Shown here: positions 23,600 through 24,255 of the stretch, piece by piece | Numbering within the stretch: position 1 is the stretch's first letter | How the letters are laid out: each line of letters opens with the position of its first letter | Source: a virus | Virus genome (UHGV): UHGV-0262927 | Reading direction: 5' to 3' (one strand) | Length of the DNA stretch: 24,255 nucleotides | Translations under genes and position numbers: made by a program | Notes under the pieces: model-generated | The model's database searches: none | The model's input: the letters and a program-made list of their open reading frames with translations, nothing else | Told to the model about the DNA's origin: nothing

Positions 23600-24026
23600 A
23601 CCGGACTCCTCCTGCGATCCCTTCTGATACTGTCATCAGCATTACGTCATCCTCCGTCATGCCCGTCACATCCGGGGAAGCGGGGATAACTTCATTCCCG
23701 TCCGGGTCAAAGCGGACGCCTCCGGCAAGCCCTGCCGCTTTCTGCATCAGCACATCATCTTCAGGCTCTTCGTCAGCCTCACGCCGGTTCAGCAGACTGA
23801 AATCCAGCGGATGCATATCCGGATCGCTGAAAAACAGGCTGAGTACGGTGTACGTCAGCCCGGAAAAGTGCATATCCAGCAGAACATCATGAAAATAGTG
23901 GGTACTGTAAAAGCGGTGCCAGTCGGCATACTCCGTGGATGACATCCCGGCAAGCATGGCGCGCCAGTCGGGTCGCCCCATCTCACGCGCCAGTTTCAGG
24001 GCAAAACTCAGCTCACCGTCGAACAC
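23592..24026 (-). CDS. T: Tail assembly chaperone T segment (C-terminal part of the G-T fusion, made by -1 frameshifting)
   Basis: ORF lies in the -1 frame relative to G and begins exactly at the last base of the GGGAAAG slippery site; overlaps the H start by 8 nt. Confidence 0.7.
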   Translation of the reverse strand: MFDGELSFALKLAREMGRPDWRAMLAGMSSTEYADWHRFYSTHYFHDVLLDMHFSGLTYTVLSLFFSDPDMHPLDFSLLNRREADEEPEDDVLMQKAAGLAGGVRFDPDGNEVIPASPDVTGMTEDDVMLMTVSEGIAGGVRYG

Positions 24027-24255
24027 TTTCCCGCAGAAACAGGCTCTGCAGGCCCGGCGTCCTCTGCCTGTTCAGGGGCATTATTCACCACAAACTCAGA
24101 CATACCGGACAGCCGGTACACCACGTTTTCAGCATGAGAAATTGCCTCTGTGGGCCAGGTGGTAAGCACTTCCTGCTCAATCTGTTTAACGGCCTCATTC
24201 ATGGACGGCATCTGCGTCTTCTTCGGATGGTTATGCCACAGGGACATCGCCACCA
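24008..24255 (-). CDS. G: Tail assembly chaperone G (partial; N-terminus beyond window edge)
   Basis: ORF ends 16 nt after the slippery site with ...AGKCSTVS; runs off the right edge of the window. Confidence 0.7.
   Translation of the reverse strand, partial: VAMSLWHNHPKKTQMPSMNEAVKQIEQEVLTTWPTEAISHAENVVYRLSGMSEFVVNNAPEQAEDAGPAEPVSAGKCSTVS
24026..24032 (-). promoter_or_regulatory. Programmed -1 ribosomal frameshift slippery heptamer G GGA AAG (G/GT)
   Basis: Plus strand CTTTCCC at 24026-24032; GGA and AAG are in the G frame (...SAGKCSTVS stop); the -1 frame continues into the T ORF. Confidence 0.7.

What the first reader, a model, noticed from the sequence alone, without database searches (positions are those of the whole stretch)
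24008..24032. Conserved G/GT programmed -1 frameshift site directly readable
The heptamer G GGA AAG lies in the G frame eight codons before the G stop. The -1 frame from its last base is the T ORF, which overlaps H. This is the classical tail-assembly chaperone frameshift and confirms that this prophage arm is an intact, functional-looking tail module.
Basis: partly seen in the sequence, partly recalled or inferred. Interest (0 to 1): 0.4.

Follow-up and report, generated by a model that had tools for sequence, protein, structure and literature searches.

The report
Lambda G/GT tail-chaperone frameshift site
This is the textbook lambda-type "slippery" site, where a few percent of ribosomes slip back one base to make the tail-assembly protein G-T; it is real, almost identical to phage lambda's, found in most E. 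coli genomes, and so ordinary.

Summary
The heptamer G GGA AAG lies at 24032..24026 in the zero frame of a gpG homologue. The AAG codon is 6 codons before the G stop (TGA, 24010..24008). The -1 frame from the last G stays open for 144 codons (24026..23592) and encodes a gpT homologue. Its stop overlaps the ATG of the 853-aa tape-measure gene H by 8 nt.

The 676-nt stretch compared is about 98% identical to lambda 9879-10569, and the slip site with its flanks is base-for-base identical. It is 100% identical to phage Perceval and to prophages in E. coli LF82 and other strains. It occurs in 3708 of 5426 complete E. coli genomes. Both ORFs exceed the Pfam and NCBIfam equivalog cut-offs for lambda G and T. 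Relatives down to 36% T identity keep a shift-prone ...A AAG motif at the same place.

The heptamer on its own is not above chance (4 found, 3.2 expected). Homology and frame context carry the call.

Two caveats apply to "intact tail module". G is cut by the window end (residues 60-140 only), and V, U and Z are off-window. At the far end, tfa is a 32-aa remnant.

Verdict: already known, low interest.

The parts
24008..24255 (-). 3' part of gene G (tail assembly chaperone gpG), residues 60-140 plus the stop TGA at 24010..24008. The 5' part lies beyond the window end.
   Evidence: Translation. Pfam PF06894 E 8e-27 matching profile positions 61-125 of 126. NCBIfam TIGR01674 equivalog at 112 bits. 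3 of 81 residues differ from lambda gpG.
24026..24032 (-). Slippery heptamer G GGA AAG (X XXY YYZ) in the G zero frame; the site of the -1 shift.
   Evidence: Identical in sequence and position to lambda 10109-10115. Papers give lambda's slippery sequence as GGGAAAG / G_GGA_AAG (PMC3296357 Table 1; PMC7618472).
24008..24071 (-). The 64-nt stretch in which both the G frame and the T (-1) frame are open.
23592..24026 (-). T reading frame (-1 relative to G), 144 codons; it is read as the C-terminal domain of the 279-aa G-T fusion.
   Evidence: Translation. Pfam PF06223 E 2e-14. NCBIfam TIGR01715 equivalog at 186 bits. 3 of 144 residues differ from lambda T. The first start codon in this frame is the GTG inside the heptamer itself, and it has no properly spaced Shine-Dalgarno.
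23948..24018 (-). Predicted two-tier hairpin beginning 7 nt 3' of the heptamer. A possible modest stimulator; not established.
   Evidence: MFE -40.6 kcal/mol, z -1.99. 90% of cells paired in a 9-sequence alignment against 21-46% for slid controls. z -1.7 to -2.3 against synonymous-codon randomisation in the lambda/Stx/HK225/phi80 group, but no signal in Gifsy-1 or PSTCR8lys.
23606..23613 (-). Shine-Dalgarno AGGAGGAG of gene H, 6 nt before its ATG, inside the end of T.
   Evidence: Read directly from the sequence.
21038..23599 (-). Gene H, the tail length tape-measure protein (853 aa, the same length as in lambda). It is the binding partner of gpG and gpGT. Its ATG overlaps the T stop by 8 nt.
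   Evidence: Pfam PF06791 and PF09718. Lambda H is annotated at 10542-13103 with the same 8-nt overlap.

Best explanation

Most ribosomes translating G read through G GGA AAG and stop 6 codons later, which gives gpG (140 aa in lambda). A small fraction slip back one base. In lambda this is about 4%, giving a gpG:gpGT ratio near 30:1. During the slip, tRNA-Gly moves from GGA to GGG and tRNA-Lys(mnm5s2UUU) from AAG to AAA. Those ribosomes continue in the T frame and make the 279-aa fusion gpGT.

The G part of both proteins coats the tape-measure protein H. The T domain recruits the major tail protein V, so the tail tube polymerises around H. Neither gpG nor gpGT ends up in the virion.

Shown here: the sequence anatomy, the homology, and conservation of the site across relatives. 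Inferred from lambda experiments: that slippage occurs, its rate, and the chaperone roles.
For: - Anatomy: an in-frame X XXY YYZ heptamer lies 6 codons before the G stop. The -1 frame is open for 144 codons, and the T stop overlaps the H start.
- Identity: about 98% nt identity to lambda 9879-10569, with the slip site and its flanks identical. 100% identity to phage Perceval and to prophages of E. coli LF82, NRG 857C and others, where PGAP names the genes 'phage tail assembly chaperone G' and 'phage tail assembly protein T'.
- Family scores: PF06894 and PF06223; TIGR01674 and TIGR01715 equivalogs above their cut-offs.
- Gene order: G-T-H-M-L-K-I-J-lom-stf as in lambda. V-G-T-H is seen in the identical or near-identical relatives.
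- Comparative: at the homologous place Stx2a phage has G GGA AAG, Stx1 and CP-1639 have A AAA AAG, and HK225, phi80, Gifsy-1, PhiR40_1 and Providencia PSTCR8lys have G GAA AAG. In every case the motif sits 1-6 codons before the G stop and the T frame is -1.
- Literature on shift-prone motifs: A_AA.G is the most shift-prone tetramer in E. coli (PMC4066793), and G_GGA_AAG is listed as highly shift-prone (PMC5009743).
- Mechanism and function from the literature: PMC5009743, PMC3296357 and PMC7618472, which cite Levin et al. 1993 and Xu et al. 2004, 2013 and 2014.
Against: Nothing in the sequence argues against it. The limits are as follows.

- No expression data exist for this locus.
- G's first 59 codons, its start and its RBS are outside the window, so an intact G cannot be verified here.
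- The heptamer alone is at chance frequency.
- No Rfam family covers the site, so there is no independent RNA-model confirmation.
- If the prophage is defective elsewhere, the site could be intact yet have no biological consequence.
Confidence: 0.95

Rival explanations
1. T is an independent gene translated from its own GTG at 24026, as the separate 'T' CDS in lambda's GenBank record and in RefSeq prophage annotations suggests. On this reading the heptamer is incidental.
For: the ORF listing gives a 144-aa ORF starting at GTG 24026. Lambda, Perceval and PGAP all annotate T as a stand-alone CDS beginning at that GTG.
Against: The GTG is the last base of the heptamer plus two more. Only a weak GGG/GGA lies upstream, 3 nt away, which is too close for a Shine-Dalgarno. 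H, by contrast, has AGGAGGAG at 6 nt. In relatives the T frame opens only a few codons upstream of the motif, and the annotated 'T' starts vary or are missing. The literature states that the T domain is made as the frameshift fusion gpGT (PMC5009743; PMC3296357). The stand-alone CDS is an annotation convention.
Confidence: 0.03
2. The site is a faithful relic inside a defective or cryptic prophage. The sequence is that of the G/GT signal, but the element no longer makes tails, so the shift has no present function.
For: The window shows decay or rearrangement at the distal end of the tail arm. tfa is reduced to a 32-aa C-terminal remnant (PGAP calls the DE17 counterpart an incomplete pseudogene). 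Non-phage cargo follows it. No complete E. coli genome or phage record covers at least 80% of the window. E. coli genomes carry a median of 2 copies of this G-T segment, many of them presumably in cryptic prophages.
Against: Every core tail gene in the window is full-length with end-to-end Pfam coverage: T, H 853 aa, M 109, L 232, K 247, I 223 and J 1231. The G-T segment is 100% identical to that of phage Perceval, which is deposited as a complete phage genome. Side tail fibres and tfa are dispensable for lambda plaque formation (own knowledge: lambda PaPa carries an stf frameshift).
Confidence: 0.2
3. The frame change is not ribosomal: either RNA polymerase slips, or the heptamer is a chance match.
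For: GGGAAAG occurs at chance frequency in the window.
Against: The A run is only 3 nt, far below the roughly 7 or more A/T usually needed for transcriptional slippage (own knowledge; slippage is contrasted with lambda GT ribosomal frameshifting in PMC5009743). The site is identical to lambda's experimentally defined site within a ~98% identical alignment. A shift-prone motif is kept at the same codon position in relatives with as little as 36% T identity.
Confidence: 0.01

Closest known systems
Bacteriophage lambda G / G-T programmed -1 frameshift (Levin, Hendrix & Casjens 1993; lambda 9711-10549, slip site G GGA AAG at 10109-10115)
   Same: The heptamer, its position 6 codons before the G stop, the T frame, the 8-nt T/H overlap and the 853-aa H are all the same. 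Nucleotide identity is about 98% over the 676 nt compared. The gpG part differs at 3 of 81 residues and gpT at 3 of 144.
   Different: Only point substitutions: G Q70K, Y111S and T122A; T G107D, A121T and D122G. Downstream, J is 1231 aa against 1132 in lambda, the stf C-terminus differs, and tfa is a remnant.
Escherichia phage Perceval (OV696612.1, Bievrevirus) and prophages of E. coli LF82, NRG 857C, SK1144 and others
   Same: 100% identical over the G-T-H junction: 856 nt for Perceval and 664 nt for the E. coli genomes.
   Different: Across the whole window Perceval covers only 40% at 95.5% identity. The tail-fibre and cargo parts are mosaic.
Conserved tail-assembly-chaperone frameshift of long-tailed dsDNA phages (Xu, Hendrix & Duda 2004)
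   Same: Two overlapping ORFs lie between the major tail gene and the tape-measure gene, with a slippery site near the end of the first and a -1 second frame.
   Different: None in kind; this locus is the prototype subfamily itself. More distant members use other heptamers (A AAA AAG and G GAA AAG seen here) or a +1 shift (PMC5009743).
E. coli dnaX and IS3-family -1 frameshift signals (A AAA AAG plus an upstream SD and a 3' hairpin)
   Same: Both depend on tRNA-Lys slippage on A AAG. A predicted hairpin sits 7 nt downstream here.
   Different: The lambda-type site works at only a few percent. No upstream SD-like stimulator is evident, and the role of the hairpin is unproven. dnaX and IS signals reach tens of percent with defined stimulators (PMC4066793; own knowledge).

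Membership tests
Lambda-type G/GT tail assembly chaperone -1 PRF | The upstream ORF is a gpG homologue. | tested here: met
   PF06894 E 8e-27. TIGR01674 equivalog at 112.4 bits against a 74.45 cut-off. 78 of 81 residues identical to lambda gpG 60-140. Only the C-terminal 81 residues are in the window.
Lambda-type G/GT tail assembly chaperone -1 PRF | The downstream ORF is in the -1 frame relative to G and is a gpT homologue. | tested here: met
   PF06223 E 2e-14. TIGR01715 equivalog at 186.5 bits against a 77.35 cut-off. 141 of 144 residues identical to lambda T. Frame relation.
Lambda-type G/GT tail assembly chaperone -1 PRF | A slippery heptamer X XXY YYZ sits in the zero frame within the G/T overlap, near the G stop, with no -1-frame stop after it. 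| tested here: met
   G GGA AAG at 24032..24026, with AAG 6 codons before TGA. The -1 frame is open for 144 codons.
Lambda-type G/GT tail assembly chaperone -1 PRF | The gene pair lies between the major tail protein gene and the tape-measure gene. | tested here: inconclusive
   T is immediately followed by, and overlaps, the tape-measure gene H. The V side is off-window. In records identical or about 98% identical over G-T, V directly precedes G.
Lambda-type G/GT tail assembly chaperone -1 PRF | The T frame has no translation start of its own. | tested here: inconclusive
   The only start codon in the open T frame before the T domain is the GTG formed by the heptamer's last base, and it lacks a properly spaced SD. 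This is sequence-level evidence only.
Lambda-type G/GT tail assembly chaperone -1 PRF | The shift site is conserved at the same position in diverged homologues. | tested here: met
   Ten relatives with 36-99% T identity all carry ...A AAG (G GGA AAG, A AAA AAG or G GAA AAG) 1-6 codons before the G stop.
Lambda-type G/GT tail assembly chaperone -1 PRF | Ribosomes actually shift, at a few percent, and produce gpGT alongside gpG. | not testable with these tools
   Known for lambda: ~96% zero frame (PMC3296357) and a 30:1 ratio (PMC5009743). Not measured for this locus.
Rfam frameshift elements (for example the dnaX and IS FSE families) | A match to a curated covariance model. | tested here: not met
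   No match at gathering threshold over the whole window. No match at E<=5 in 23800-24255. This search matched no Rfam family, so the absence says nothing against the site.

The most novel reading that the evidence does not exclude
The predicted two-tier hairpin (24018..23948, minus strand), which starts 7 nt after the heptamer, could be a selected 3' stimulator. On this reading it sets the roughly 4% shift rate, and so the gpG:gpGT ratio, in the lambda, Stx, HK225/N15 and phi80 group. The most distant relatives (Gifsy-1, Providencia phage) would have lost or replaced it.

The evidence is suggestive only: z about -2 against both dinucleotide and synonymous-codon controls, and 90% pairing with 5 doubly changed pairs in 9 related sequences. 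The structure was derived from the same alignment, the sequences are related, and the region encodes a conserved peptide. Conserved hairpins downstream of prophage shift sites have already been surveyed in silico (PMC4066793).
Probability: 0.25. Interest if true: 0.2.

Novelty: already known. Interest (0 to 1): 0.06.

Why it matters
It matters only as annotation. The G and T ORFs should be joined as one ribosomal-slippage CDS (G residues 1-135 plus T, 279 aa), not listed as a separate 'T' gene. The intact site is one of several signs that the core tail genes are not decayed. It adds nothing new to biology: the mechanism was established for lambda in 1993, its conservation was described in 2004, and this exact sequence is in thousands of E. 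coli genomes.

Tried and rejected
- Motif statistics: the GGGAAAG count is at chance. A generic scan for an in-frame heptamer followed by a long -1 frame returns many spurious hits in shadow frames of real genes. Pattern alone was therefore rejected as evidence.
- Rfam: nothing at gathering threshold or at permissive E-values.
- tRNA or att-site check for a prophage boundary: no tRNA found.
- PDB sequence search with the reconstructed 279-aa GT: only spurious weak hits, and no solved relative by sequence.
- Promoter and terminator scan of 23300-24255: nothing meaningful.
- Xu et al. 2013 (PMC3762263) is not held. Levin 1993 and Xu 2004 are not in the library, so they are cited only through reviews.
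- Script problems: the first heptamer script had a frame-indexing fault and printed no heptamers (fixed). The first synonymous-randomisation run timed out (repeated).
- Independent initiation of T, transcriptional slippage and a chance match were considered and rejected (see the rival explanations).

Full report
**1. What is in the sequence**

The genes at this end of the window run on the minus strand. Read 5'->3' on that strand, the window begins inside an open frame (24253..24008, 81 codons plus stop). That frame ends ...E P V S A G K C S T V S * with TGA at 24010..24008.

- GGGAAAG occupies 24032..24026 and is phased G GGA AAG in this frame.
- AAG is 6 codons before the stop, GGA is 7, and the GCG codon that provides the first G is 8.
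- The -1 frame beginning with the last G (GTG, 24026) is open for 144 codons to TGA at 23594..23592.
- Upstream, the -1 frame is closed by a stop at 24074..24072. Both frames are therefore open only over 64 nt (24071..24008).
- The T-frame stop overlaps the ATG (23599) of an 853-codon ORF by 8 nt (ATGGCTGA). A strong AGGAGGAG lies 6 nt before that ATG.

The two omissions are the strand and the fact that the upstream gene is cut by the window end.

**2. Is it more than chance?**

The heptamer alone is not. It occurs 4 times in the window against 3.2 expected, and 38 of 100 shuffles reach 4. The copy at 19920..19914 lies in the K gene but out of phase, and the other two are on the opposite strand.

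A generic scan finds 54 in-frame XXXYYYZ heptamers in open stretches of at least 80 codons. Several have long -1 continuations, nearly all in shadow frames of real genes. The case therefore rests on homology and context.

**3. Identity**

- DNA: the 856-nt end of the window is 100% identical to Escherichia phage Perceval and 97.7-97.9% identical to many lambda-like phages. Aligned with lambda NC_001416 positions 9879-10569, it is about 98% identical, and the heptamer and its flanks match base for base.
- Lambda annotation: lambda's record has G at 9711-10133, T at 10115-10549 and H at 10542-13103. The G/T overlap, the GTG and the 8-nt T/H overlap are all the same as here.
- Proteins: the G fragment differs from lambda gpG 60-140 at 3 residues, and T at 3 of 144.
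- Family models: PF06894 (lambda TAC protein G) and PF06223 (minor tail protein T) match. NCBIfam's equivalog models TIGR01674 and TIGR01715 are both well above their cut-offs.
- Distribution: the 664-nt G'-T segment is found in 3708 of 5426 complete E. coli genomes, with a median of 2 copies. Most hits are at 95-99% identity. It is 100% identical in LF82, NRG 857C, SK1144 and others, where PGAP names the genes 'phage tail assembly chaperone G' and 'phage tail assembly protein T'.

**4. Comparative support for the shift site**

T homologues were collected by tblastn down to 36% identity, and eight diverged loci were fetched. In every one the T frame is -1 relative to the G frame, and a shift-prone motif sits 1-6 codons before the G stop:

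| Motif | Loci |
|---|---|
| G GGA AAG | Stx2a phage |
| A AAA AAG | Stx1 phage, CP-1639 |
| G GAA AAG | HK225, phi80, Gifsy-1, PhiR40_1, Providencia PSTCR8lys |

The invariant core is A AAG. A_AA.G is the most shift-prone tetramer in E. coli (PMC4066793), and G_GGA_AAG is listed as highly shift-prone (PMC5009743).

**5. Mechanism**

This is inferred from lambda, not measured here.

- In lambda about 96% of ribosomes stay in frame and make gpG. The rest slip -1 on GGGAAAG and make gpGT (PMC3296357).
- The roughly 30:1 ratio is critical for tail assembly. [quoted passage not shown] Neither protein is in the virion (PMC5009743).
- Thiolation of tRNA-Lys U34 tunes the rate (PMC3296357; PMC7618472).

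Here the fusion would be G1-135 followed by VFDGELSF..., 279 aa in all. T has no credible start of its own. The only start codon is the GTG formed by the heptamer, with no properly spaced Shine-Dalgarno. The stand-alone 'T' CDS in database records is an annotation convention.

**6. A possible 3' stimulator**

A two-tier hairpin is predicted from 7 nt after the heptamer (24018..23948).

- Against dinucleotide shuffles: MFE -40.6 kcal/mol, z -1.99.
- In a 9-sequence alignment: RNAalifold keeps it, 90% of cells pair against 21-46% for slid registers, and 5 pairs show double changes.
- Against synonymous-codon randomisation that keeps the T protein: the native fold is stronger in the lambda, Stx, HK225 and phi80 sequences (z -1.7 to -2.3), but not in Gifsy-1 or PSTCR8lys.

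This is suggestive at best. The structure was derived from the same sequences, those sequences are related, and the peptide is conserved. Conserved hairpins after prophage shift sites have been surveyed before, and most were judged doubtful (PMC4066793). From memory, which I could not check, Levin et al. 1993 reported a modest influence of downstream sequence without a clear structural requirement.

**7. The 'intact tail module' claim**

- Within the window: T, H (853 aa), M (109), L (232), K (247), I (223), J (1231), lom (199) and stf (690) are uninterrupted, and their Pfam matches run end to end.
- Off-window: G's first 59 codons and V, U, Z and the head genes. In near-identical records they are present.
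- At the distal end: stf keeps a lambda-like N-terminus, but tfa survives only as a 32-aa C-terminal remnant at 11520..11422. The PGAP annotation of the DE17 relative calls its counterpart an incomplete pseudogene.
- Beyond that: cargo, including a Septu pair, a RepL-like protein, DUF4756 and DUF6387.
- Whole-window matches: no complete E. coli genome or phage record covers at least 80% of the window, so the element is a mosaic.

The slip site is consistent with a working tail arm but does not confirm one.

**8. Verdict**

The feature is already known and nearly ubiquitous in E. coli. Interest is low (0.06). The only loosely open point is the role of the hairpin.

Noticed in passing
window 2070..4004 (-): A Septu anti-phage defence pair lies in the cargo region beyond the tail fibres. 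PtuA ATPase is at 2739..4004 (PADLOC PDLC00268, E 9e-147, full length). PtuB HNH nuclease is at 2070..2735 (PDLC00331, E 1e-85). In the related E. coli DE17 prophage a comparable region beyond the tail fibre genes carries SMODS and SLATT genes instead, which suggests a variable defence-cargo region.
   Followed up: partly
window 11422..11520 (-): Only the last ~30 residues of the tail fibre assembly protein Tfa remain (25 of 29 identical to lambda Tfa 163-191). The tail arm is truncated or rearranged at its distal end. Two small ORFs without Pfam matches (11867..12145 and 11564..11857, minus strand) lie between stf and the remnant.
   Followed up: partly
window 12142..14214 (-) and 14940..18635 (-): stf (690 aa) has a lambda-like N-terminal 157 aa (75% identical) but an unrelated C-terminal part. 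J is 1231 aa against 1132 in lambda, yet has all the J domains including the C-terminal receptor-binding domain. Host-range determinants therefore differ from lambda's.
   Followed up: partly
window 23948..24018 (-): A predicted two-tier hairpin starts 7 nt 3' of the slip site. It has z about -2 against both dinucleotide and synonymous-codon controls. It is kept in the lambda, Stx, HK225 and phi80 relatives but not in Gifsy-1 or PSTCR8lys.
   Followed up: yes
window 5214..10789: Other cargo ORFs: a RepL-like HTH protein at 5214..6011 (+), DUF4756 at 6913..7392 (+) and DUF6387 at 9896..10789 (-). The first 400 nt or so and much of 1..11400 have no close match in lambda-like phages. No tRNA gene or Rfam family was found anywhere in the window.
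   Followed up: no
L006-L010 (HK225, phi80, Gifsy-1, PhiR40_1, PSTCR8lys): The more distant G/T homologues use G GAA AAG, which is not a canonical X XXY YYZ heptamer. Only the A-site tRNA-Lys can re-pair perfectly. In Gifsy-1, PhiR40_1 and PSTCR8lys the motif sits only 1-2 codons before the G stop. The database records annotate the T part inconsistently.
   Followed up: partly
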